From: Escherichia phage vB_EcoS_SP8
Direction: 5' to 3' (one strand)
Length of the DNA: 57,585 nt
Sequence record: MT682705.1
The translations under genes were made by a program, and so were the position numbers. Shown in pieces: positions 17,645-55,126 of the stretch (position 1 is its first letter; each line of letters opens with the position of its first letter). The notes below the pieces were generated by a model. The model was given only the letters and a program-made list of their open reading frames with translations. It did no database searches and had not been told where the DNA came from.

Positions 17645-19243
17645 TTATGTCCCCACAGTCTTACCGATACTACCGCCACGCGCTTCGTTGGCTACGCGAT
17701 AACGAGCTTCGTCAGCAATGTGGTCTTCAGAATCAGTATCGACATCATCAAGATCATCTTCGTCTCTGGCAAGAGTTGGAACAAGATCTATAAAGTGATG
17801 ACAGTTGTCAAAAATAAACATAGAAGGTCTTTCACGTAAAGCGGCAACCTTAGGATCCGGAATTGAAGCAGCTAAGTATTCCCGCATTCGTTTCCAACCT
17901 GCTTTACGAGATCCAGGGGATTTATCACTTCGAATCCACTGTACACCAGGATAAGACCGACCATTGATAGTTATTGGTTTAGACATTGTTGCTGCGGTAC
18001 TGTTACCATCCTTAACGTCCCAAATGCTGTTATCAGCAGGGCCTGGAACTACACGACCGTATAAACCAGCTTCAATTTCCCTGACGATGATACCACGAGC
18101 AATTTCAGAATCCAATAATCTTAAACCTTCGTTCGGTTTCCCGTTAGTACCATACCACTCCATGATCCTAAATAAGTCACCTCGTACTGTTCGTACACGA
18201 CGCCCGTTTGGATACACGATATCGCTACCATCACTTCTTGCCCACCAACCAACAGAAAACGGTTTACTTGAGCCCCAGTCAAATGATCTATCAATTCTCC
18301 AGGAGTGAGGTATTGGGAATGGTTTGACCACATGTATATTCTGGCGCCACAGGTCATCGAACATACCACCGGACGTAATATCCCAGCTACCACCGAGCCA
18401 CGCCATGCGGAGGTTAGGATCGTCAATGTTTACAAGCTGTGCAACATACTCAGGTGTTAAGTTGCGGTTCTCTCTGTATGAACCAAATATATGACAGCGA
18501 GTGCGAACTACGTCTTCCCGTTTCTGTGTACGCGGGTTGAATACGTTCGTTACTTCCTTCTTCATTGACCCAAGCGGGCAAGAGTTAATAAAATACTTCT
18601 TGACCCAGTTATGCCCAACTCCAAATGGGTTAGTCGTAGAAAAGATTTGCAACGGTAAAGGTGGCAGTATGAACTGCATTGCGTATTCGTGGTCCGGTTG
18701 AACAAGCACAAGACGCCCAGTTCTCCGATACACATCACCGTCAATAATTATCGGGTTTTCTTCTGCAACAAAGGATGTACGGTTACAGGACTTCATTGCT
18801 TCATAAAGCCCACTGTCAGGATATTTAGTTAATTCGTTCCATCCAATAAATGGAAATTCCTGACCGTGGTACAGCCAGTAATCCTTAGGCTTTTTAGCAA
18901 CACGGAACATTAGTTCTTCGCCGCTAGGCCATACCCATTTATAATCTGACTTGGAAGATAAGAACTTACAACCGTCATTAAATTCAGGAAACCAACGCTG
19001 TGACTTTGCAACTAAGTCATCTAAGTTTTTGTATTCTCGGTCAAAAATGATACCGCGCCAATGTTTACCGTACCCCATACCAACATAACGACGAAAACGC
19101 ATCAACTGAGCATCGGTCTTTCCAGGGCCACGAGTACCATGATATAAAATCTCATCTGCTGGACAACTCAGTGCCAGTACCTGAGATCCTGGATGTGGTT
19201 TCCATACTACCTTAGTGGACGGTGTTTGAATCATTGAGTCCAT
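17645..19243 (-). CDS. terL: terminase large subunit
   Basis: 532-aa ORF with N-terminal P-loop-like segment (LYHGTRGPGKTDA) and position upstream of portal. Confidence 0.75.
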   Translation of the reverse strand: MDSMIQTPSTKVVWKPHPGSQVLALSCPADEILYHGTRGPGKTDAQLMRFRRYVGMGYGKHWRGIIFDREYKNLDDLVAKSQRWFPEFNDGCKFLSSKSDYKWVWPSGEELMFRVAKKPKDYWLYHGQEFPFIGWNELTKYPDSGLYEAMKSCNRTSFVAEENPIIIDGDVYRRTGRLVLVQPDHEYAMQFILPPLPLQIFSTTNPFGVGHNWVKKYFINSCPLGSMKKEVTNVFNPRTQKREDVVRTRCHIFGSYRENRNLTPEYVAQLVNIDDPNLRMAWLGGSWDITSGGMFDDLWRQNIHVVKPFPIPHSWRIDRSFDWGSSKPFSVGWWARSDGSDIVYPNGRRVRTVRGDLFRIMEWYGTNGKPNEGLRLLDSEIARGIIVREIEAGLYGRVVPGPADNSIWDVKDGNSTAATMSKPITINGRSYPGVQWIRSDKSPGSRKAGWKRMREYLAASIPDPKVAALRERPSMFIFDNCHHFIDLVPTLARDEDDLDDVDTDSEDHIADEARYRVANEARGGSIGKTVGT

Positions 19244-24267: not shown

Positions 24268-24415
24268 AATAGATCTCCTCTCGAGTATTTACATACGGAA
24301 TTAACTTTATACGAACAATATAGGGCAGGTGAGGTGAGGATATAAAGTGTCTAGTGACGAGATAATCTACAAATGATGAATCCTTGGCAGAGATCTAAGA
24401 GCCGCCCCGCGGCGT

Positions 24416-24488
24416 TACTATAACGTCCCGTGATCGTCAGTGAGGTGATTGTTACGTCATGTGACTGTCATGCGCTCTACTATAACGT
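24416..24488. repeat. direct repeat TACTATAACGT (2 copies about 62 bp apart) in divergent control region
   Basis: read directly in the 24.27-24.87 kb non-coding region; GTGAGGTGA also occurs twice nearby. Confidence 0.5.
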
Positions 24489-24620
24489 TGTTTATTGTTA
24501 CACGCGTTATTATTTTTTATTTGATTAGTGTGCTATCTATTACATGACTATACTATACCGTCCAGTGTAATTACATCTGTTACTATCCACCTGCCCACTA
24601 TATGCTGTCTATGTATGTGC

Positions 24621-24690
24621 TACCTGGTATTTCCGGCGTGTGCTGTTACCTGGTATTTTCAGCACGCTCGCGCTACCTGGTATTTCCGGC
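24621..24690. repeat. three direct repeats TACCTGGTATTTCCGGC at 26-27 bp spacing
   Basis: copies at about 24621, 24647 and 24674 (middle copy with 3 mismatches); upstream of the early promoter. Confidence 0.6.
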
Positions 24691-24768
24691 ACACCATCTA
24701 CTGCATAGTCCCGGATGTTATTATTATGAAACACAACTAAAAAAGTTCTAAAATATTGCAGATAATAG

Positions 24769-24797
24769 TTGCATCTGATACCCTGCTGTCATATTAT
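24769..24797 (+). promoter_or_regulatory. candidate sigma70-type early promoter
   Basis: TTGCAT, 17-bp spacer, TATTAT; followed by a 5' UTR hairpin (AAGCGGG...CCCGCTT) and RBS GGGAGA before the ATG at 24873. Confidence 0.45.
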
Positions 24798-24872
24798 AAA
24801 TGCGTAGGGTAAAGGGGGTTTTAAAGCGGGACACGGGTTCCGCGCCCGCTTCACCCGAAGGGAGATTGCATT

Positions 24873-25178
24873 ATGTCCATTATCTACTTACCGCGTTCTA
24901 TGTCCCAGTCCATGATCACCAAACGTATTATCGGCAAGCGCCTGTATCAGCTGGACCTTACTGCGGAAAAAGTCGACGGGGATTGGGGTTTCGACGAGTA
25001 TTTAGTAATGCTCCCGGGCAACGAAAAGTATTCCAGCACCCCGTTATATATTCGCATTAATGAGGACGGTACTGTTAGCTCTCACGCTGTAATGTACGGC
25101 CGAGCAGTATGCCAAGCGAATAGTCTTTGGTCTGTGTTCTGCTTTATTACAATGATAGCGAAGGCCATTCAACAATAA
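24873..25178 (+). CDS. hypothetical early protein
   Basis: 101-aa ORF, first plus-strand gene; RBS GGGAGA. Confidence 0.45.
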   Translation: MSIIYLPRSMSQSMITKRIIGKRLYQLDLTAEKVDGDWGFDEYLVMLPGNEKYSSTPLYIRINEDGTVSSHAVMYGRAVCQANSLWSVFCFITMIAKAIQQ

Positions 25179-25192
25179 TAGCGTGCTAATGG

Positions 25193-25233
25193 TTGCCCAT
25201 TGTAACAGTGGGCTCCCACTAGCAATCCGCTAG
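25193..25233 (+). promoter_or_regulatory. conserved intergenic hairpin element, copy 1
   Basis: TTGCCCATTGTAACAGTGGGC then GCAATCCGCTAG; near-identical copy at 26738-26779. Confidence 0.4.
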
Positions 25234-25254
25234 AACAACATGGAGATATTCACA

Positions 25255-25734
25255 ATGGTTACTATCACCCGTGTAGCAAAAGACGCTCGCTTCTTCGCCA
25301 CTATGTCTAACGCTCGCCGCGCCTTGAAAAAGGTTCTGGATGTAGACACAGCGACAGCTAACAGCTTTATTCACCAGGAACCGCACGAAGACGGTGGCCG
25401 CTACTGGTTCAGCGAAAGCGCCGTTAATAAGGCGGCTAGCGATCTGGTTGAAGCTGATAAAGCAACTGTCGTGGAAGTGACCACACAACAAGCTCCGGTC
25501 GCTCCCGCTAAAAGTAAAACGCGCAGCGAAACGCGCAACGGGGTCCGTCGCCCGATCAAAGGTAAATGCGCAGACGTTTGGAACGCTCTGGATAACATGT
25601 TACCTAATGGTGTGCCAACTATTGGTAACGTCCGTGACCTTGCGAAAGCTAATGGCTGGAATATTAATAACGCAACGATTGAATTCTACGCATGGCGTAA
25701 ATTCAACGGGCTCAATAATAAAGAGGGCAATTAA
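25255..25734 (+). CDS. hypothetical early protein
   Basis: start at ATG (MVTITRV) preceded by GGAGA. Confidence 0.4.
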   Translation: MVTITRVAKDARFFATMSNARRALKKVLDVDTATANSFIHQEPHEDGGRYWFSESAVNKAASDLVEADKATVVEVTTQQAPVAPAKSKTRSETRNGVRRPIKGKCADVWNALDNMLPNGVPTIGNVRDLAKANGWNINNATIEFYAWRKFNGLNNKEGN

Positions 25735-25812
25735 TTATGTTCTACTTATTAGCGTTCTTGATATTCGGAGCTCCAATAGTTGCGGGTCTGTATTATACGG
25801 AGGGTAAATAAT

Positions 25813-25998
25813 ATGGAAACTATCGTTCTGACTTGTTGGGTTGACCTGGACGATCACGAATATTGCGTGAATATTAACAACGGACCAGTCCCGGACGCAA
25901 CTTTCGCATCCTATGACGAAATGGATGCGTATGTAAAAGGTTTCCGCGAATGCGCTCGCACTGCAAATATTAACGTGACTGTAATTTTACCGGAGTGA
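25813..25998 (+). CDS. hypothetical small early protein
   Basis: start at ATG (METIVL) preceded by GGAGGG. Confidence 0.4.
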   Translation: METIVLTCWVDLDDHEYCVNINNGPVPDATFASYDEMDAYVKGFRECARTANINVTVILPE

Positions 25999-26003
25999 TT
26001 ATC

Positions 26004-26270
26004 ATGCGTAAAGCTAACAAGAATTCTTTCGTTGAAATGGCTCGTGTTGTTCTCAACCGTCAGTCCTTCTACCTGTACCACCGTCACGAATTTGATCTGT
26101 GGACTGAAGAGGAAACGTGCTGCCAGTACGAGATCCATACACGGAATGGTGTAATATTCACTTCCAGTAATTATCCGGAAGTTAAAGAATACTGGGACAA
26201 GCTGATCGCTGAAGCGTATGCTGAATTCCAGAAGCAAACTATTTACCTGATGGGCCTTCGCGCTGAGTAA
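26004..26270 (+). CDS. hypothetical small early protein
   Basis: start at ATG (MRKANK) preceded by GGAGTGA. Confidence 0.4.
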   Translation: MRKANKNSFVEMARVVLNRQSFYLYHRHEFDLWTEEETCCQYEIHTRNGVIFTSSNYPEVKEYWDKLIAEAYAEFQKQTIYLMGLRAE

Positions 26271-26305
26271 TTATTAACGTCAACATAATTTAAGGAGTGA
26301 CTATC

Positions 26306-26554
26306 ATGGCACAAGCAATTATCACCAAATTCCTGGCTCCAACTATGTCCCGTGGCGATCGTGTAAAAGCAACATGTTGGAATAGTTCCGTGACTATTGC
26401 CTGGAGTTACCAGTTGGACACATACGGAAACCACCGCGCCGCAGTGGAAGAGCTGGTCAAAAAGTTAAACGCTAAAATGGACGCCGAGTTTAAGATCGTA
26501 GCTGGTGGAGAGCTCCCGGATCAAAGCGGTTACGCGTTCATCATCACTGCATAA
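26306..26554 (+). CDS. hypothetical small early protein (paralogue-like to 26798..27043)
   Basis: start at ATG (MAQAII) preceded by AAGGAG; similar length and residue pattern to the 26798 gene product. Confidence 0.4.
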   Translation: MAQAIITKFLAPTMSRGDRVKATCWNSSVTIAWSYQLDTYGNHRAAVEELVKKLNAKMDAEFKIVAGGELPDQSGYAFIITA

Positions 26555-26564
26555 GGGGATAATT

Positions 26565-26729
26565 ATGGAACGCAACTATTTCCAGTTTATTTATCGCGGT
26601 CGTTGCTATCACATCCGTAACAAGTTTCGCAACCTGACCCGCGATCAACTTGAGTACGCTATTAATCTGGTGAGTGATGGTCACTTCGCTACACTATCAG
26701 AAGCGTTAGAATATCTGTCCGCTGAGTGA
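26565..26729 (+). CDS. hypothetical small early protein
   Basis: 54-codon ORF starting at ATG (MERNYF) preceded by AAGGGG. Confidence 0.35.
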   Translation: MERNYFQFIYRGRCYHIRNKFRNLTRDQLEYAINLVSDGHFATLSEALEYLSAE

Positions 26730-26737
26730 CATATACA

Positions 26738-26779
26738 TTGCCCATAGTAACAGTGGGCAATAATATGCAATCCGCATAG
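26738..26779 (+). promoter_or_regulatory. conserved intergenic hairpin element, copy 2
   Basis: TTGCCCATAGTAACAGTGGGCAA then GCAATCCGCATAG upstream of the 26798 gene. Confidence 0.4.
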
Positions 26780-26797
26780 TTAACTGAGGAAATTATT

Positions 26798-27043
26798 ATG
26801 CAAGCTATCCATGTAAAAACACTGTCCGCCACCGAAACGAAATGTCGTCGCTATAAAGCTGTTGGCCTTGATATGTGTGTTGTCACCCCCATCGACTACA
26901 GACTCAACAGCGAAGCGAATGCAGCTTATGCAGCGCAAGAGCTTGTGGACCGGTACAACGCTCGCGCCCAGTGGAAGGTTCGCATTGTTGGTATCGGTAC
27001 GCTTCCAGATAATACCTGGGCGGTACTATTAGATAACAAATAA
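26798..27043 (+). CDS. hypothetical small early protein
   Basis: 81-aa ORF with RBS GAGGAAA; followed by a strong intrinsic terminator. Confidence 0.45.
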   Translation: MQAIHVKTLSATETKCRRYKAVGLDMCVVTPIDYRLNSEANAAYAAQELVDRYNARAQWKVRIVGIGTLPDNTWAVLLDNK

Positions 27044-27066
27044 CTTCTAAACCATTATACAATCCG

Positions 27067-27102
27067 CGCCCTGTTGAAGTCCAACGGGGCGTTTTTGTTT
27101 TT
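27067..27102 (+). terminator. rho-independent terminator ending the early operon
   Basis: 10-bp stem CGCCCTGTTG / CAACGGGGCG (one G-U pair), 5-nt loop, followed by TTTTTGTTTTTG. Confidence 0.7.
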
Positions 27103-27596
27103 GTACCCGCACCACCTCCCGCGCTACCCTGCTGACCACATATTCCTCACCCATAACTCCACCATTCGCGCTCTAAGAACCTGAATCCCTCTTCCGTACA
27201 TTACCATTGACTCCAATTCAGTCGCCTTATACGCCCTTACAGTGATCCACTCCCTGCTTCCCTGTACGCGATTTTGCGGCATTTTCGCCCCTCACCGCCA
27301 CCCTTACACCGATCCAACCAGTTAATCGCGCTACGCGCCCCGTTTTCGCGGCTATTTTCGCTTTATGGGCGACCCGTTACCCCGATCTCAGCTACCCAAC
27401 CTCACCGAAAAGCCGGCTTTGCCCGAAAAATCCGGCATTTATACCATAAAATAGAATCGTTTTCGGGCTACAAAATTTCAAACTCGCAAATCGCTTTCAC
27501 TTCGAGAGTTACCTCAGCAAAAATCGCTTGCAATCCACTTTTCTTTTGTGTTAGACGCGCGGACGCGCATTATGCGCAGGCGCCAGGCTCTGCCCT

Positions 27597-28018
27597 GTCT
27601 ACTGACGAGCCAGATTTATAAAGTTAATAAATTCGTATATTTTCGCGTAATGTACGAAATGAAAGGGGGTAAGTGCATGAAAAATAAGGTAAAAAATGTG
27701 TGTATGTGTGTATTTATATAAATTTTATAAAGATTTTTTGTTTTTTTAGTTGTCTACTGACGACCCTACGAGACCCCTTTATAAAATTTATAAATTCCCA
27801 CGTTCCCCCCAACTCTCGAAATTTTCCCTTATTTTTCATACACTTCGCTTCGCCGTTTCGTATGTTGCTGGATCTTTATAAATTGTGCATTTTTTCACCG
27901 ATCTTTATAAATTTGCAATTTCTCACCTTCAGACTGCTGTAATTTTTGCAAAAGCAAAAACTTTGCATATACAAACACCGCAAAATGTCACAATTGCAAA
28001 TAGCAAAAACTTCGCATA
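27597..28018. repeat. cluster of direct repeats in a 1-kb non-coding region
   Basis: GTCTACTGACGA at about 27597 and 27752; GATCTTTATAAATT at about 27871 and 27900; AGCAAAAACTT(T/C)GCATA at about 27953 and 28002; TTTATAAA recurring at least 5 times. Confidence 0.6.
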
Positions 28019-28079
28019 AATTAAAACTTGGCAACTGAATTTCAAAATTAATCGATTTTATTTAGTCAAGGGTGAGGTT

Positions 28080-28700
28080 ATGCGCAATCGTAATATTGAA
28101 ATAACGCACGCACACGTACAGGAAATGTTCGGTTATGACGAACAAATGTATGCCAAAGCGGTAGCCATATTAGAACAGCACAAAGACAGCCTAAGTAATG
28201 TGGTCAAAGCGTGGAAGGAGGCTGGCCTCGTGTTGCGGCCGAATGCGGTCAAGAAGTTAGATGACGGGCGGATGTATATGTGCTGGTCGGCTCCGATGTT
28301 GGGTATGATGTTTACTGTCGACATCTACTTCGGGTACTGGTTGTTAGAGGTGGATTGTGTGATTCCGCTCGACAAGTATATGCACAGTAAAGGATTCAAC
28401 AGTTGCTTTGACGTGTGTCCTGATACGGAAGGCAACGCTGTTATGATCCTGGGCTTTAAGTGGGTCGGCGATAAGTGTGAAATTAGGCCGTTGCGATACC
28501 CGCGTGGTAAAGCCCGTCGTGCATATATTGAAGATGGTGTTGTTGGCTGGTGTGATGTACAGAAGCGTCGGATGGGTGCTAACCACATTGCGCATATCAA
28601 GGAGTGCCTCGTTAGACTTCAGGCGAATAATAGTGGTAATGTGCAGTTACAGCAAGAACTGCAAGAGCTCATTGAATACATTGATCAGTTTGGAGCGTAA
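28080..28700 (+). CDS. hypothetical protein
   Basis: 206-aa ORF, first gene after the repeat-rich non-coding region; RBS GGGTGAGG. Confidence 0.45.
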   Translation: MRNRNIEITHAHVQEMFGYDEQMYAKAVAILEQHKDSLSNVVKAWKEAGLVLRPNAVKKLDDGRMYMCWSAPMLGMMFTVDIYFGYWLLEVDCVIPLDKYMHSKGFNSCFDVCPDTEGNAVMILGFKWVGDKCEIRPLRYPRGKARRAYIEDGVVGWCDVQKRRMGANHIAHIKECLVRLQANNSGNVQLQQELQELIEYIDQFGA

Positions 28701-31267: not shown

Positions 31268-33817
31268 ATGCTGGAACTTTTTCCTCAAGAAATTAAACAA
31301 TACGAACAGTGGGCTGTCTGCGGTTTCCATCCAGGTACATCATCAGAAAAACAACCTTATGTATGGGACGATGATTTAGGGGATATGGTCCCACTTCGTA
31401 AAGACGGTAATGATAAGAAACCGTCTAACCTGCATTTACTTATGTCTTTTGAAGATGCTGAACGCTGCATTCGTTATTATAACGAGATTGGCCATAACTT
31501 GCGTTTAGGTTTCTATTTACTTCCAAGTGACCCGTTCTGTTGTATTGACATGGACATTAAAGATACCATGTCTGAAATGGAAAAGAAAGTTGCTGGTGAG
31601 CGATATAAGAAGATTGTTGAATCGTTCCATAGCTATACGGAAATTTCCAGAAGCGGTGATGGGTTGCACACATGGATTTATTCTATCCCTCAAGCTGGTA
31701 AGCGCCGTGATGGTGTGGAAGTGTATTCACAATATCGTTTTATTATCTGTACAGGCGATCACTGGGATGTTACTCCGCGCACTGTGTCTGGTGCTCCAGG
31801 CAGTGAAAGCGAAGGGTATATTGCTAATCTCATTCATCAGCTTATGTCTGAGATGAGTGAGATTAATGAGTCTGATGGCTTCCAAATGCTGGAACTTACT
31901 GAAGAAGATTTTAGTAACGACCCATATGCAATGGAAGATCAGGATGTCTATATTCAGTTGTGTGAACAAGAAAACGGGACATTGTTTAAGCAGCTATGGG
32001 AAGGTCGTTGGAGAGCTGAAGAAGTTGATACTTCTATCGGTGAACGCTGTTTCCCTTCTCAGTCTGAAGCAGAATTTGCATTAATTGACTTTCTTTGCTT
32101 TAAGAGCAAGTATAATTTCCAGGTAAGACGCCTATTCATGTATTCACCAATGAGTAGTCGTTACGATGATTCCCGTCGTCTGCCTGGTGAAAAAATCAAA
32201 CGTCCGTATCACCTGGATAGAATGATTCGTAACTACCGCTATGATGCCCATGTTAAATCTATGGGACTTATGCAGATAGTTCAGAATAACGTTAATGCAG
32301 CTATAGAGCGCACGGAGAAACTGCGTCAAGCAACTACACCAGAACGCCCACCTGAAGAAGTGTTGACCACAGATGGCAATTACACTGAAGAGCAGGCAGA
32401 CGGTTTGGCTTGGCCTCCGGGCTTTATGGGCGAGGTTGCGCGTAACATGTATAAAGCGAGCTTGTTGCCTATTAAAGACATTAGTATTCTGTCTGCTCTT
32501 GCTTTATTTAGTGGTATGTGCGGTAAGGCGTGGAACACAGTCACACGAAGTGGTCTGAATAACTACTTTGTATTAATTGCACGTTCTGGTATTGGTAAAG
32601 AAGCGTTTCGCTCTAACATTGAAACTATTCTTTCTCAAGTATCCAATTATGGCGGCCAGGACGGTCAGCAGATATTTGGTATTGAACGTGTTTTGGATAC
32701 AAGTACCTATGCGTCTGATGCTGCATTGCGCAAGGATGTCATAATGGATACGTCCGTTATGTCTTGTGGCTCATCCATCAACTATAAGACTGAAGTCGGT
32801 GCATTTTTCCGTAACGGTAAGATGGAAGTTGGTAAAGCTAAAGACATTATGGATGAAATGCTTTCCCTTTATGACAAGGGGCATTTCTATGCTTTCTCTG
32901 GTGGTTCAAAACACTCTAGTAAAGATAATACGACTGCTGGAGGTAAGGTTAAGGCGTATAGTTTTGCAGGTGAAACAACACCAGATGAATTTTATGGCAA
33001 CGTAGACGACCGTATGATGTCGAGTGGCTTCATGTCCCGCATTATCGCATGGGAATGTACAGCTAACCGCCCATTGATGAATAAGAGTATGCTCCTGGAA
33101 TATCCAGAAGCAATTCTGCGCACTATTGGAGCTATCTATAAACAAGCTGTGCGCATTATGTCAGGGACTGCCCCATGCTATGTTGAAATGGAAGCAGAGG
33201 TACACGAAGCATTTGATAATCTTGATAATGTTGTTGCGAAGTTCCTGAACAGCGGCAATGATGGTGAGCAGGTACAAGACGAAGTAATTCGTCAGATGTA
33301 CACAAGGAAGGCGTTGAAGGTATTGCGTATCGCTTCTCTTCTTGCTGTAGCGGATAACAGTGAGCGTCCTGTTGTTACTATGGAACATTATCGTTGGGCT
33401 GAGTCATTTATTGATCAGGGTAACGAGCGTTTCTTAGAGAAGCGTAATAGTGGGCAGATTGGGTCTACAGATAGTACCAGTCGTGAGAAAATAATGCTCA
33501 ACTCTATCAAGAAGTTCTTGGATGGGGAAGTTAAAGCTGGTGTGTATAAACGGTTCCCAATGTTTAAGGGCGCGTTTATTGTCACACGGAGTGACTTATG
33601 TACTTATTGTAGACAATTTAAAGCGTTCAAGCAGACAAGAAATGACAACATCTTGCAGGTCATAGACAACACAATTTATGGTTTGATGTCTATGGAAGTT
33701 CTTACTGAAATGAGGCCAATGGACTTTTCAAGTTTCTTCGGTGCAGAGTTTACACCACCGAGGATGAAGTGTTATTTGGTAGACATTGAGAGAATGAACG
33801 AAGTTATTAAGTTATAA
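31268..33817 (+). CDS. DNA primase-polymerase (AEP-like) fused to a helicase-like C-terminal domain
   Basis: 849-aa ORF; N-terminal CCIDMDIKD (DxD) and SGDGLHTW motifs typical of archaeo-eukaryotic primase folds; Walker A-like SGIGKE in the C-terminal half. Confidence 0.55.
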   Translation: MLELFPQEIKQYEQWAVCGFHPGTSSEKQPYVWDDDLGDMVPLRKDGNDKKPSNLHLLMSFEDAERCIRYYNEIGHNLRLGFYLLPSDPFCCIDMDIKDTMSEMEKKVAGERYKKIVESFHSYTEISRSGDGLHTWIYSIPQAGKRRDGVEVYSQYRFIICTGDHWDVTPRTVSGAPGSESEGYIANLIHQLMSEMSEINESDGFQMLELTEEDFSNDPYAMEDQDVYIQLCEQENGTLFKQLWEGRWRAEEVDTSIGERCFPSQSEAEFALIDFLCFKSKYNFQVRRLFMYSPMSSRYDDSRRLPGEKIKRPYHLDRMIRNYRYDAHVKSMGLMQIVQNNVNAAIERTEKLRQATTPERPPEEVLTTDGNYTEEQADGLAWPPGFMGEVARNMYKASLLPIKDISILSALALFSGMCGKAWNTVTRSGLNNYFVLIARSGIGKEAFRSNIETILSQVSNYGGQDGQQIFGIERVLDTSTYASDAALRKDVIMDTSVMSCGSSINYKTEVGAFFRNGKMEVGKAKDIMDEMLSLYDKGHFYAFSGGSKHSSKDNTTAGGKVKAYSFAGETTPDEFYGNVDDRMMSSGFMSRIIAWECTANRPLMNKSMLLEYPEAILRTIGAIYKQAVRIMSGTAPCYVEMEAEVHEAFDNLDNVVAKFLNSGNDGEQVQDEVIRQMYTRKALKVLRIASLLAVADNSERPVVTMEHYRWAESFIDQGNERFLEKRNSGQIGSTDSTSREKIMLNSIKKFLDGEVKAGVYKRFPMFKGAFIVTRSDLCTYCRQFKAFKQTRNDNILQVIDNTIYGLMSMEVLTEMRPMDFSSFFGAEFTPPRMKCYLVDIERMNEVIKL

Positions 33818-53156: not shown

Positions 53157-55126
53157 GAAAAGACGCGATTGGGTTTTTCTGGACGGATTTACCTCCCGCT
53201 AAGAAAGAGAAGAAACAGAAAGTAAAACGTCAACCAGTTGAAAGGGTATGGGAACGCCCAGACTACCTTCCAGGTCTTGATGCAGCAATGCGTTTTGCAG
53301 CTAATGATCCGCGTATGACAGACGGTGAATTAGTGGAAATGTATTTTGCACAAGAAACGTTCGTATACGATATCGAATGTTATAAGAATTATTTTCTTGT
53401 GGCGTTTAAAGGGGTTAAGTTCGGTAAGGTTTATTATCTAGAAATGACTGCCGGTCAGACACTTGACACGGAAAAATATGAATGGATAATGAAGAACTTT
53501 CGTACCGTTGGTTTCAACTCAAGAAACTACGATAATACGATGACATTCCTTGCCATTGCTGGTTTAACTGTTGACAAGCTAAAAGAAGCAAGTGACAGGA
53601 TGATCCAGGAAGAGTGGGCTCCGTGGGACATTCTTAACAGTTTTGGGGTAAAACAGTTTTGGATTGACCACATTGACGTTCAAGAAGTAGCTCCGGGCTT
53701 CGGTTCGTTGAAGCTGTATGGTGGCCGTATGCACATGCAGAAGCTCCAGGACTTACCATTCCCACCACATTGGGCGTTATCCGTAGAACAGATTGCTATT
53801 GTGCGCTTCTACTGTATTAACGACCTTGATACAACAATGGCTCTGTTTAACTCACTGGAAGAGCAAATCCATCTACGTGAGATTATGAGTGAAGAGTATA
53901 AAGTAGATCTTCGCTCTAAATCCGATGCACAGATTGCAGAAGCTGTAATCCGCCATGAAATGAAGGAAATGCTGGGCTTCGTACCACAGAAGGGTATGGT
54001 GGAAGTTGGCAGAACCTTTAGGTACAATCCTCCAGTGTGGTTAGGTTTCCAAACGCCACTAATGAAGTCCGTATTTCAGGTTGTGCTTGATAGTTACTTC
54101 CGAGTCGCAGAGGATGGTAAAATTAAGCAACCATCGACAATGAACTCTCTGAAGTTTACAATCAATCAGACAACTTACAACATGGGTATCGGTGGTCTGC
54201 ACTCATGCGAAGAGTTAATGGAGATTGTACCATCTGAAGATGAAGAGATGTGGGATGCTGACGTAACGTCATACTACCCGATCTGTATCATTAACCAGCG
54301 ACTATATCCTGAGCACCTGGGCCCGCGCTTTATAGATATTTTCGTTAAGATCGTAGAACGACGTATTGCAGCTAAGATGGCTCATGACGATAAGACCTCA
54401 CAGACTCTTAAGATCGTTATTAACGGTTCTTATGGTAAGTTCGGTTCACCGTTCTCTATTCTGTATGCACCGCATCTTATTATTCAGACCACATTGACAG
54501 GTCAGTTGGCTCTGCTTATGCTCATTGAAACACTAGAGCTTAACGGCATTCAGGTCGTTAGTGCTAACACGGATGGTATCGTTATTAAGCCTTGCAAAGC
54601 TAAGAAGCAATTAATGACGGATATCATTAAGTGGTGGGAAGAAACAACTGGCTTTGAAATGGAGTTGAACCAATACCTGCGTCTTAACTCTGCAAACGTC
54701 AACAACTACGTCGCAATCAAAGCAGATGGTAAAGCCAAGCGTAAAGGTTGGTTCGCAGAGACAGGTCTAGCTAAGAACGCGGAAGGTGAGATTATTATGG
54801 ATGCTGTGGTCAACCTTCTCCGTGACGGTACACCAATTGCTAAAACTATCACAGAGTGTCAGGACATTCGTAAGTTTGTTTGTATCAAGACAGCTAACGG
54901 TGGCGCTGCATGGAATAGTGAGCCATTGGGTAAAGTCGTTCGCTGGTATTATACAAAAGAGGAAGTACCTGAGATACTAATAGTCAAGAGTGGTGGTCGT
55001 GTCGGTAAGACAGCAGGGGGTAAACCTATGATGGAACTCACTGACCAGTTACCGCCGGATCTCAACCACGAAGTGTACATAGCTAAAGCGGAAAAATTGC
55101 TGGAAAAACTCGCATACGCCGCTTAA
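53153..55126 (+). CDS. DNA polymerase, family B-like
   Basis: Exo I-like YDIECY; motif A DVTSYYP; motif B KIVINGSYGKFG; motif C SANTDGIVI. Confidence 0.7.
   Translation: MRKDAIGFFWTDLPPAKKEKKQKVKRQPVERVWERPDYLPGLDAAMRFAANDPRMTDGELVEMYFAQETFVYDIECYKNYFLVAFKGVKFGKVYYLEMTAGQTLDTEKYEWIMKNFRTVGFNSRNYDNTMTFLAIAGLTVDKLKEASDRMIQEEWAPWDILNSFGVKQFWIDHIDVQEVAPGFGSLKLYGGRMHMQKLQDLPFPPHWALSVEQIAIVRFYCINDLDTTMALFNSLEEQIHLREIMSEEYKVDLRSKSDAQIAEAVIRHEMKEMLGFVPQKGMVEVGRTFRYNPPVWLGFQTPLMKSVFQVVLDSYFRVAEDGKIKQPSTMNSLKFTINQTTYNMGIGGLHSCEELMEIVPSEDEEMWDADVTSYYPICIINQRLYPEHLGPRFIDIFVKIVERRIAAKMAHDDKTSQTLKIVINGSYGKFGSPFSILYAPHLIIQTTLTGQLALLMLIETLELNGIQVVSANTDGIVIKPCKAKKQLMTDIIKWWEETTGFEMELNQYLRLNSANVNNYVAIKADGKAKRKGWFAETGLAKNAEGEIIMDAVVNLLRDGTPIAKTITECQDIRKFVCIKTANGGAAWNSEPLGKVVRWYYTKEEVPEILIVKSGGRVGKTAGGKPMMELTDQLPPDLNHEVYIAKAEKLLEKLAYAA

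What the first reader, a model, noticed from the sequence alone, without database searches (positions are those of the whole stretch)
27044..28079. One-kilobase non-coding region with several families of direct repeats
After the early-operon terminator there is about 1 kb without a convincing gene; the track ORFs here lack an RBS and have skewed composition. The first half is strongly C-rich on the plus strand, with a recurring TTTTCG(C/G) motif and the palindrome GCGCATTATGCGC. The second half is AT-rich with at least three repeat families (GTCTACTGACGA x2, GATCTTTATAAATT x2 each containing GATC, AGCAAAAACTTYGCATA x2) and many TTTATAAA palindromes. This architecture fits a replication origin with iterons and an unwinding element, an array of regulatory binding sites, or a structured non-coding RNA.
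Basis: seen in the sequence. Interest (0 to 1): 0.65.

Follow-up and report, generated by a model that had tools for sequence, protein, structure and literature searches.

The report
Inner end of phage terminal repeat
This conserved 1-kb gene-free stretch of a 9g-like (Nonagvirus) coliphage is where the phage's roughly 3.4-kb direct terminal repeat ends, so it most likely holds the stop signals of the first early operon, the site where the genome's right end is cut for packaging, and the control region of the next operon, rather than a non-coding RNA or a classical iteron origin.

Summary
The window is a Nonagvirus (phage 9g-like) genome. The stretch is non-coding yet constrained: 69% of columns are invariant in 18 genomes, against 36-50% at third codon positions of the flanking genes.

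Two relatives deposited with their physical ends, HdK1 and HdSG1, carry exact 3,367- and 3,363-bp direct terminal repeats (DTRs). In window coordinates the repeat runs from 24399 to 27782/27785. Base 24399 matches the read-start hotspot published for 9g. So about 740 bp of the finding is the inner tail of the DTR and about 295 bp is unique DNA upstream of the next operon.

- **Right terminus:** it falls inside an invariant TTTATAAA. All six genomic copies of this palindrome lie in 27615-27911.
- **Shared box:** the terminus lies 19-22 nt after an invariant 13-mer, TGTCTACTGACGA. A G-variant of this box sits 38 nt before the left DTR end.
- **Upstream part:** an intrinsic terminator is followed by the most C-rich, G-poor tract of the genome, which looks like a Rho-loading (rut) site.
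- **Rejected readings:** there is no Rfam hit, no excess RNA folding, no DnaA or IHF consensus site and no true iterons.

The closest analogue is T5 Repeat Region 3. The cutting function and the stop-signal function are inferred, not shown.

The parts
24348..24360 (+). Left copy of the 13-bp box (TGTCTAGTGACGA, G-variant), 38 nt before the left DTR terminus
   Evidence: An exact match to TGTCTASTGACGA occurs only 3 times in the window, about 0.003 expected by my arithmetic. It is present at this place in 14 of the 15 relatives whose locus covers it; JenP2 has one mismatch. The distant UViG L049 also has it.
24399..27785 (.). Predicted direct terminal repeat (about 3.39 kb). It carries the first early operon (24873-27043) and the first ~740 bp of the finding.
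   Evidence: HdK1 has an exact 3367-bp DTR and HdSG1 an exact 3363-bp DTR. Both ends map to window 24399 and to 27782/27785. Base 24399 equals the 9g read-start hotspot 28,243.
27066..27102 (+). Intrinsic terminator closing the DTR-borne early operon
   Evidence: 11-bp stem, 7 GC pairs, T-run. Annotated as a terminator in HdK1 and HdSG1. A hairpin sits at the same place in L049.
27100..27450 (+). C-rich, G-poor, unstructured untranslated tract (rut-like); contains the TTTTCG(S)/CGAAAA cluster at 27282-27465
   Evidence: C 136, G 52; top-ranked windows of the genome. (RNA z = +0.42). (the same composition peak directly after the terminator in L049). (motif enrichment; four copies invariant in 18/18).
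27431..27565 (.). Most conserved core block, function unknown; a possible rightward promoter lies here in the sister clade
   Evidence: 92% invariant columns at 27431-27480. Recognisably conserved in L049, L051 and L052.
27566..27640 (.). Variable cassette. In this genome it holds an extra box copy (27596-27608) and TTTATAAA (27615-27622), and it overlaps the GC palindrome (27565-27577).
   Evidence: 25% invariant columns; alternative alleles; box copy in 4/18 genomes.
27671..27845 (.). Nested inverted repeat (arms 27671-27694/27822-27845 and 27717-27732/27777-27792) centred on the box
   Evidence: I1: 24 nt, 92% complementary; I4: 16 nt, 100%. (DNA fold z = -4.53; 0 of 200 shuffles fold as well).
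27735..27763 (+). T-run followed by the invariant right box TGTCTACTGACGA (27751-27763, C-variant)
   Evidence: 18/18 identical. Also present in L049. Absent in L051 and L052.
27778..27785 (.). Invariant palindrome TTTATAAA that contains the DTR right terminus (after 27782 by HdK1, after 27785 by HdSG1)
27871..27913 (+). Two copies of (G)ATCTTTATAAATT, 29 bp apart, in unique DNA just outside the DTR. The TTTATAAA cores are invariant.
27946..28023 (+). Two 49-bp-spaced units, TTGCAA-N16/17-TAnAnn. Each encloses a short palindrome GCAAA-N3-TT(T/C)GC. Read as candidate promoter/operator units for the operon that starts at 28080.
   Evidence: for the sequences. They fall below the threshold of the consensus scan, so the function is inferred only.

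Best explanation
The region is the inner (right-hand) junction of a direct terminal repeat of about 3.39 kb, window 24399-27782/27785. It is a composite of cis-acting DNA signals, not a gene.

1. Shown by homology: the virion DNA's right end lies at 27782-27785, inside the invariant TTTATAAA.
2. Inferred: the first early operon is carried on the repeat and so is present at both genome ends. It is closed by an intrinsic terminator (27066-27102). The 350-nt C-rich, G-poor, unstructured tract that follows acts as a Rho-loading back-up. Together they insulate the terminus and the next operon from early read-through.
3. Inferred: the AT-rich segment 27660-27850 is the site where terminase recognises and cuts concatemeric DNA to make the right end. 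It contains a T-run, the invariant box TGTCTACTGACGA, nested inverted repeats and the genome-unique TTTATAAA palindromes. If the left, early-gene end enters the cell first, as the 9g authors proposed, this is probably the packaging start. The G-variant box 38 nt before the left terminus would mark the other cut.
4. Inferred: the 295 bp outside the repeat (27786-28079) carry promoter/operator-like repeats for the delayed-early replication operon, which starts at 28080. Its primase-helicase gene is at 31268.

The confidence of 0.6 is for the composite reading. The narrower claim that the repeat ends inside this region I put at about 0.85.
For: - Identity of the phage: 17 phage records, all annotated Nonagvirus, match the region at 87-93%.
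- DTR in relatives: HdK1 and HdSG1 are linear records with exact 3367- and 3363-bp terminal repeats. Their ends were set where reads stop abruptly. Both left ends map to window 24399, the same base as the 9g read-start hotspot. Their right ends fall 3 nt apart in a locally identical sequence, although the unique genome lengths differ by about 460 bp. This argues for a sequence-specific cut rather than a headful cut.
- Box at both boundaries: 14 of the 15 relatives covering the left site have an exact left box (JenP2 has one mismatch). All 18 aligned genomes have the right box. The G/C difference between left and right is fixed, and the distant relative L049 shows the same arrangement.
- TTTATAAA occurs only in this region.
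- The inverted repeat around the box folds far better than shuffles (z = -4.53).
- Nucleotide-level constraint without any coding signal.
- The C>G extreme of the genome lies here and recurs in L049; the RNA is unstructured.
- A related lineage, phage iggy, also has DTRs.
Against: - No read data exist for this particular phage. The terminus is transferred from relatives that are 87% identical over the region.
- The 9g study reported only one read-pile-up hotspot, the left end, and no second one.
- The box lies at different distances from the two termini (38 nt against 19-22 nt).
- Sister-clade contigs L051 and L052 keep the left boxes but lack the right one. In L052 the box is missing while its flanks are kept. 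So the right box is not universally required, or those phages end their repeat elsewhere.
- JenP1, L051 and L052 carry a homing-endonuclease gene after the 81-aa gene. In JenP1 it replaces 27044-27272, so the terminator and the first third of the C-rich tract are dispensable.
- The inverted repeat is only weakly retained in L049 (z = -1.06), and no compensatory changes were seen.
- Promoter calls in 27860-28030 fall below the scan threshold.
- Rho dependence and terminase binding are untested.
Confidence: 0.6

Rival explanations
1. Replication origin. The AT-rich segment would be the unwinding element and the short repeats (TTTTCGS, TTTATAAA, box) would be initiator sites for the phage primase-helicase encoded 3.2 kb downstream. 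This reading is not mutually exclusive with the terminus reading.
For: - The genome-wide cumulative G-C minimum is at 28053, at the right edge of the region, and the maximum is at 55034.
- The DTR-borne early genes on the + strand have about zero skew, while the next + strand operon has +0.22 to +0.33. A replication-linked component to the skew would produce this.
- An AT-rich T-run and a strong cruciform-prone repeat are present.
- The region lies directly upstream of the replication-gene operon.
Against: - There are no iterons in the usual sense. The direct-repeat families have two copies, with irregular spacing and partial conservation.
- No consensus DnaA box or IHF site is present.
- The skew minimum is produced mostly by the C-rich tract itself and coincides with a switch in transcription units, so it is not independent evidence.
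- The AT-rich repeats are replaced by unrelated sequence in L049, L051 and the Seuratvirus KS_A3.
Confidence: 0.15
2. T5-like DNA-entry checkpoint. The repeat-rich non-coding DNA at the inner end of the left repeat would halt genome ejection after the DTR-borne genes have entered, until their products allow transfer of the rest.
For: - The architecture parallels T5 Repeat Region 3. That region is 1.2 kb, untranslated, full of repeats and palindromes, mostly inside the left terminal repeat, overruns into unique DNA by 270 bp, and follows the pre-early genes.
- Here the figures are 1.04 kb, about 740 bp inside and about 295 bp outside, following 7 small early genes of unknown function.
- The region is conserved more strongly than synonymous sites.
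Against: - The paired DnaA boxes that characterise the T5 region are absent.
- No DTR gene matches any annotated family, so none was recognised as an A1, A2 or dmp homologue.
- No evidence exists for two-step transfer in any Nonagvirus.
- The similarity is architectural only.
Confidence: 0.08
3. Purely transcriptional control region. The box, the TTTATAAA sites and the AGCAAAAACTTYGC units would be operators for phage regulators or a nucleoid protein that time the early-to-middle switch. The nearby terminus would be incidental.
For: - The left box lies in the divergent early/late control region, next to a triple operator-like repeat.
- The units at 27946-28023 look like promoters with embedded palindromes.
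- TTTATAAATT resembles the H-NS high-affinity site TCGATAAATT (recalled from memory, not tested).
Against: - TTTATAAA and the box are absent from every other intergenic region of the genome. Operators or promoter elements of a general regulator would be expected upstream of other operons too.
- The mapped terminus falls exactly inside one invariant TTTATAAA in two phages.
Confidence: 0.12
4. A structured non-coding RNA or a hidden small protein gene.
For: The stretch is long, conserved and free of annotated genes. Different annotators have called small ORFs here in SE1, HdK1, PD328, BRET and JenK1.
Against: - There is no Rfam match at the gathering score or at E<=1.
- Folding energies do not differ from shuffles on either strand.
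- The annotated ORFs differ from genome to genome.
- No PHROG or Pfam hit for ten conceptual ORFs.
- No codon periodicity.
Confidence: 0.03

Closest known systems
Bacteriophage T5 Repeat Region 3, the untranslated inner end of the left terminal repeat and proposed injection stop signal
   Same: Both are kilobase-sized untranslated regions dense in direct repeats, inverted repeats and palindromes. Both lie after the terminal-repeat-borne first-expressed genes, are mostly inside the repeat and overrun by 270-300 bp into unique DNA. Both are more conserved among relatives than many neighbouring ORFs, and homing-endonuclease insertions occur nearby.
   Different: There is no sequence similarity. 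No DnaA-box pairs are present. The repeat is 3.4 kb rather than 10 kb. No A1, A2 or dmp homologues were recognised. Two-step transfer has not been shown for Nonagvirus.
T7/T3 concatemer-junction processing signals (pac elements and the inverted repeat implicated in hairpin-primed duplication of the terminal repeat). Recalled from the literature, not re-read here.
   Same: Both are exact, sequence-defined direct terminal repeats. Specific sequences lie next to the repeat boundaries, and an inverted repeat next to one boundary could form a hairpin.
   Different: The T7 repeat is 160 bp and non-coding, whereas here it is 3.4 kb and carries an operon. There is no sequence similarity. The terminase here is distant from T7's: its relatives in the phage collection are Seuratvirus, Yuavirus-like and other siphoviruses.
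pac sites of headful phages with flanking repeated elements (P1 pac hexamers, SPP1 pacL/pacC/pacR). Recalled from the literature.
   Same: A cut site is embedded in an AT-rich segment and flanked on both sides by repeated short elements, here CTTTATAAA in opposite orientations.
   Different: The right ends of two relatives coincide within 3 nt despite unique genomes that differ by about 460 bp. This indicates sequence-specific termination, not headful termination. The GATC in the repeats is not conserved, so P1-like Dam control is unlikely.
Rho-dependent terminators (rut sites), e.g. lambda tR1
   Same: A C-rich, G-poor, untranslated tract of more than 80 nt lies downstream of an operon end and is predicted to be unstructured.
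   Different: It follows a strong intrinsic terminator, is unusually long (about 350 nt), and its first third is dispensable in JenP1. Rho dependence is untested.

Membership tests
Boundary of a sequence-defined direct terminal repeat (T7/T5-type genome ends) | The same sequence is present at both ends of the virion DNA, with fixed end positions | tested here: met
   Exact 3367- and 3363-bp repeats in the HdK1 and HdSG1 records. The ends are homologous to window 24399 and 27782/27785. The left end equals the 9g read hotspot. This is transferred by homology; it was not measured for this phage.
Boundary of a sequence-defined direct terminal repeat (T7/T5-type genome ends) | The end position is independent of genome length, so it is not a headful cut | tested here: met
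   The right ends of HdK1 and HdSG1 are 3 nt apart, although the unique lengths are 60,692 and 60,232 bp.
Boundary of a sequence-defined direct terminal repeat (T7/T5-type genome ends) | Terminase recognises and cuts this sequence | not testable with these tools
   Needs in vitro cleavage, EMSA or mutant phages. The box/TTTATAAA architecture is circumstantial.
T5-type injection stop region | Untranslated repeat-rich region at the inner end of the left terminal repeat, after the pre-early genes | tested here: met
T5-type injection stop region | Conserved paired DnaA boxes (TTWTNCACA) | tested here: not met
   No consensus boxes in 27044-28079. One-mismatch sites number 5 against 2.7 expected.
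T5-type injection stop region | Two-step DNA transfer dependent on A1/A2-like proteins | not testable with these tools
   DTR proteins hit only PHROGs of unknown function and no Pfam family. The transfer kinetics need an experiment.
Iteron-type replication origin | Three or more regularly spaced direct iterons, conserved among relatives | tested here: not met
   The direct-repeat families have 2 copies; the one 3-copy family is an 11-mer spread over 590 bp. Several families are not conserved.
Iteron-type replication origin | AT-rich unwinding element and host-factor sites (DnaA, IHF) | tested here: inconclusive
   An AT-rich T-run is present. DnaA and IHF consensus sites are absent.
Iteron-type replication origin | Replication initiates here | not testable with these tools
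   The skew minimum at 28053 is confounded by transcription direction and by the C-rich tract.
Rho-dependent terminator (rut site) | C>G, unstructured, untranslated RNA of at least ~80 nt downstream of a coding region | tested here: met
   C 136 and G 52 over 351 nt, the genome's extreme. RNA fold z = +0.42. No ORF support.
Rho-dependent terminator (rut site) | Termination depends on Rho | not testable with these tools
   Needs bicyclomycin or rho-mutant transcriptomics.
Structured non-coding RNA | Match to a known family, or folding or covariation above background | tested here: not met
   no Rfam match; z-scores near 0.

The most novel reading that the evidence does not exclude
Nonagviruses, and perhaps Queuovirinae generally, may use a T5/SPO1-like strategy in a 60-kb siphovirus. 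A host-takeover operon sits on a long terminal repeat, and the repeat's non-coding inner junction is a multifunctional checkpoint. That junction would stage DNA entry or the early-to-middle switch. It would also serve as the packaging start, where a box-guided cut and a hairpin-forming inverted repeat allow duplication of the 3.4-kb repeat from concatemers.
Probability: 0.12. Interest if true: 0.75.

Novelty: new variant of a known kind. Interest (0 to 1): 0.5.

Why it matters
The 9g paper left the size of the terminal repeat unresolved. In the papers I could search, nobody has described where it ends or what lies there. Placing the right terminus inside this conserved non-coding block has four consequences.

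- It explains why a kilobase of non-coding DNA is kept under selection.
- It shows that the first early operon is diploid in the virion and sits at both genome ends.
- It gives short, testable candidate signals for DTR-type packaging, a mechanism poorly understood outside T7: a 13-bp box with fixed left and right variants, and a genome-unique palindrome.
- It affects practice. Most deposited Nonagvirus genomes, this window included, are probably missing about 3.4 kb of true virion sequence and are opened at arbitrary points. Engineering or deleting this "empty" region would probably damage packaging.

Tried and rejected
- **Rfam scans:** the whole window at gathering score and the region at E<=1 gave nothing.
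- **RNA folding:** three segments on both strands showed no excess structure.
- **Hidden genes:** ten conceptual ORFs were scanned against Pfam or PHROGs, with no hits.
- **Sigma-70 consensus scan:** no promoter above threshold on the + strand inside the region. The promoter reading of 27946-28023 therefore stays an inference.
- **Host-factor and Chi sites:** there are no DnaA or IHF sites and no Chi-like enrichment in the C-rich tract.
- **More distant relatives:** a search with the 206-aa downstream protein found only the same 17 records.
- **Exact-motif scan of IMG/VR:** most of the 35 loci were chance matches. Five new Nonagvirus contigs and one distant relative were useful.
- **TerL relatives:** searched as a guide to packaging type; the result was uninformative.
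- **Phage iggy:** its record layout was too different to compare.
- **Left DTR boundary:** tested for a matching cruciform; none was found (z = +0.53).
- **Box as a universal feature:** rejected, because L051 and L052 lack the right copy and the Seuratvirus KS_A3 has no box at all.
Full report
**What the window is.** The region and its flanks match 17 phage records at 87-93% identity (13 distinct phages; some are present as both GenBank and RefSeq copies). All are annotated Nonagvirus: 9g, SE1, JenK1, JenP1, JenP2, HdK1, HdSG1, BRET, the BASEL phages Bas19 and Bas20, and others. No record outside this genus matches the non-coding stretch, even with sensitive blastn. The map is the one described for 9g. 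Late genes lie on the minus strand up to about 24.3 kb. A divergent control region follows. A short early operon on the plus strand (24873-27043) is followed by the finding region. A long plus-strand operon then starts at 28080 and includes the primase-helicase gene at 31268.

**Checking the observation.**
- An 11-bp-stem terminator with a T-run lies at 27066-27102.
- Segment 27100-27450 has 136 C and 52 G. It contains the most C-over-G-skewed 100-nt and 350-nt windows of the whole genome on either strand.
- TTTTCG or its complement occurs 7 times between 27282 and 27645, out of 27 copies in 57.6 kb.
- GCGCATTATGCGC lies at 27565-27577.
- The three two-copy repeat families are at the stated places.
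- The palindrome TTTATAAA occurs six times, and all six copies are within 27615-27911. There is not one copy in the remaining 57.3 kb. Local dinucleotide shuffles give a mean of 0.10 copies and never more than 3.

**Non-coding but constrained.** I aligned the region from 18 genomes: the window, 12 GenBank phages and 5 IMG/VR contigs. In 27044-28079, 69% of columns are invariant, and 73-84% in the best blocks. In the two flanking genes the figures are 65-83% at codon positions 1-2 and only 36-50% at position 3. Variable sites show no 3-nt periodicity. Stop-free frames differ between genomes. The small ORFs that various annotators placed here do not coincide. Ten conceptual ORFs hit no Pfam or PHROG family, whereas 7 of the 8 flanking genes tested hit a PHROG. 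The stretch is therefore under selection as DNA or RNA, not as protein.

**Not a structured RNA.** There is no Rfam match at the gathering score in the window, nor at E<=1 in the region. Predicted RNA folding is no better than shuffles: z = +0.42 for 27096-27460, z = -0.25 for 27440-27660, and z = -0.24 for the minus strand.

**The key fact: a genome end lies inside the region.** Two relatives, HdK1 and HdSG1, are deposited as 64-kb linear records. [quoted passage not shown]
- The two ends of each record are exact repeats of 3,367 bp (HdK1) and 3,363 bp (HdSG1), with no mismatch.
- One boundary of both repeats aligns to window base 24399 (GAGCCGCCCC...).
- This is the same base as position 28,243 of the 9g record. 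The 9g authors found a read-start hotspot there and concluded it was the physical left end. They also concluded there was a terminal repeat whose size they could not measure.
- The other boundary aligns to 27782 (HdK1) and 27785 (HdSG1), in the locally identical sequence ...GACCCCTTTAT|AAA|ATTT.
- The two phages have unique genome lengths that differ by about 460 bp, yet they end within 3 nt of each other. The right end is therefore set by sequence, not by a headful.

Transferred to this genome, the terminal repeat is 24399-27782/27785. The first ~740 bp of the finding are the inner tail of the repeat. The last ~295 bp are unique DNA in front of the next operon. This step rests on homology; no reads exist for this phage.

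**Anatomy around the terminus.**
- The terminus lies inside the TTTATAAA at 27778-27785, which is invariant in 18/18 genomes. The copies at 27875 and 27904 are also invariant.
- Nineteen to twenty-two nucleotides upstream is a T-run followed by TGTCTACTGACGA (27751-27763), also invariant in 18/18.
- Exact matches to TGTCTASTGACGA occur only three times in the window. The third is at 24348-24360, 38 nt upstream of the left terminus, in the same orientation. By my arithmetic about 0.003 matches are expected by chance.
- In 14 of the 15 relatives that cover the left site, the left copy has G at position 7; JenP2 has one further mismatch. In all 18 aligned genomes the right copy has C.
- A clearly more distant metagenomic relative, L049, shares only 68-78% identity in patches. 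It has the same arrangement: a G-type box plus a second variant at the left, and a C-type box preceded by a T-run in its 1.17-kb non-coding region.
- The right box sits at the centre of two nested inverted repeats: 24-nt arms at 27671-27694/27822-27845 and 16-nt arms at 27717-27732/27777-27792. As single-stranded DNA, 27660-27860 folds with z = -4.53, better than all 200 shuffles.
- CTTTATAAA sites point inward from both sides.
- The left boundary has no such structure (z = +0.53).

**Anatomy upstream.**
- In L049 the 300-nt window with the largest C excess also starts right at its terminator, although the sequence has diverged. Composition, not only sequence, is therefore conserved.
- A long C-rich, G-poor, unstructured, untranslated RNA segment just after an operon end is the defining make-up of a Rho-loading site. 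I read it as a back-up terminator and insulator, but this is inference.
- Four of the TTTTCG/CGAAAA copies are invariant in 18/18 genomes. The motif is also over-represented in the non-coding regions of L049, L051 and L052. Its partner protein is unknown.
- Block 27431-27565 is the best-conserved part (92% invariant at 27431-27480) and is recognisable in the sister clade. Its role is unknown.
- Segment 27566-27640 is a variable cassette with alternative alleles. They are not general features.

**Anatomy downstream of the terminus.**
- Two (G)ATCTTTATAAATT units keep their TTTATAAA core in all genomes, but not the GATC.
- Two 49-bp-spaced units have the form TTGCAA-N16/17-TAnAnn with an internal GCAAA-N3-TTYGC palindrome. 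They look like weak sigma-70 promoters with operators for the operon that starts at 28080.
- These units do not reach the threshold of the consensus scan, so this is a suggestion only.

**Best explanation.** The region is the inner junction of the direct terminal repeat and a composite of DNA signals. It contains:
1. the stop signals of the repeat-borne early operon;
2. conserved elements of unknown role;
3. the site where the right genome end is made;
4. the control region of the next operon.

The 9g authors argued that the early-gene end enters the cell first. If so, that end is packaged last. Packaging would then start at the right terminus, which fits its much more elaborate architecture compared with the left terminus. 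The two box variants could tell the start cut from the end cut. All of this mechanism is inferred.

**Evidence against it.**
- The 9g study reported only one hotspot.
- The box-to-terminus distance differs at the two ends.
- Sister-clade contigs L051 and L052 have left boxes but no right box. In L052 the box is missing while its flanks are kept.
- The Seuratvirus KS_A3 has an analogous ~530-bp AT-rich non-coding gap about 2.9 kb from its divergent region, but with other repeats and no box.
- In JenP1 a homing-endonuclease gene replaces 27044-27272, so that part is dispensable.

**Rivals.**
- A replication origin cannot be excluded. The genome-wide cumulative G-C minimum is at 28053. The repeat-borne plus-strand genes have no skew while the next operon has a strong one. 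But there are no real iterons and no DnaA or IHF consensus sites, and the skew is confounded by transcription direction.
- A T5-like injection stop is suggested by a close architectural parallel with T5 Repeat Region 3, which is 1.2 kb, mostly in the left repeat and overruns 270 bp into unique DNA. The DnaA boxes of that region are absent here, and no A1/A2-like proteins are recognisable.
- A purely regulatory array is hard to square with motifs that occur nowhere else in the genome and with a terminus that falls exactly in one of them.
- The RNA or hidden-gene reading is rejected.

**Novelty.** Direct terminal repeats with first-expressed genes and repeat-rich inner junctions are known from T5 and SPO1. 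DTRs are also reported for the Queuovirinae-related phage iggy (1,091 bp). For Nonagvirus, the repeat length and its right boundary are present only implicitly in two GenBank records. They are not discussed in the papers I could search. The box pair, the genome-unique palindrome at the terminus and the extreme C-rich tract are new details. I file it as a new variant of a known kind.

Noticed in passing
window 24619-24690: Three direct copies of GCTACCTGGTATTTCCGGC (19 nt, spaced 26-27 bp) lie in the divergent early/late control region, just inside the left end of the terminal repeat. They look like an operator array in front of the early promoter.
   Followed up: partly
window 24401-24413; L049 (reverse complement) about 7437-7444: The left genome end starts with GAG followed by a GC-rich palindrome (GCCGC-CCC-GCGGC). 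The distant relative L049 has a different GC palindrome (GCCCGGGC) at the homologous place. So both termini coincide with short palindromes, GC-rich on the left and TTTATAAA on the right. I read this from the sequence only.
   Followed up: no
L014 (JenP1) 3896-4369; L051 and L052 about 6250-6730: An HNH homing-endonuclease gene on the opposite strand sits directly after the 81-aa gene in JenP1 and in two sister-clade contigs. In JenP1 it replaces the terminator and the first ~230 bp of the C-rich tract. T5 also has an HNH insertion between its repeat regions.
   Followed up: partly
window 26297-26551 and 26798-27040: Two genes on the terminal repeat are paralogues (31% identity, both phrog_3199, unknown function). 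HdK1 and others carry a third, more divergent copy in between.
   Followed up: partly
window 25995-26270: A ~250-bp segment (26019-26269, with a 91-aa ORF that has no PHROG hit) is absent from most relatives. BRET and PD328 align across it. The early operon on the repeat is mosaic.
   Followed up: no
window 26501-26508: One of only four exact Chi sites (GCTGGTGG) of the genome lies inside the terminal repeat on the plus strand. In that orientation it would act on RecBCD entering from the right genome end. It may be chance.
   Followed up: no
L049 (reverse complement) about 10150-10200; L051 about 7060-7100; window 27506-27540: In the sister clade the conserved core block contains a near-consensus rightward sigma-70 promoter (TTGACA-N16-TGTAAT). 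The homologous window sequence is much weaker (GTTACC-N16-TGCAAT). Transcription across the terminus region might matter for its function.
   Followed up: no
L064 (Seuratvirus KS_A3) 6992-7519: The sister genus has an analogous ~530-bp AT-rich non-coding gap about 2.9 kb from its divergent control region and ahead of its primase operon. It carries repeated ATAGTGG / GTTTATA elements instead of the Nonagvirus box. This suggests a subfamily-wide architecture with lineage-specific signals.
   Followed up: partly
window 17648-19243: The large terminase is 100% identical in protein sequence to that of FritzHoffmann and at least 99% identical in 17 records, while the non-coding junction is only about 90% identical to the same phages. 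Conservation is very uneven along the genome, consistent with mosaicism.
   Followed up: no
PMC4276943 (9g paper), section 3.5: The 9g authors saw about 1.5-fold higher read coverage over the whole early half of the genome, with a sharp break at the left terminus. A 3.4-kb repeat does not explain this, and it remains unexplained.
   Followed up: no
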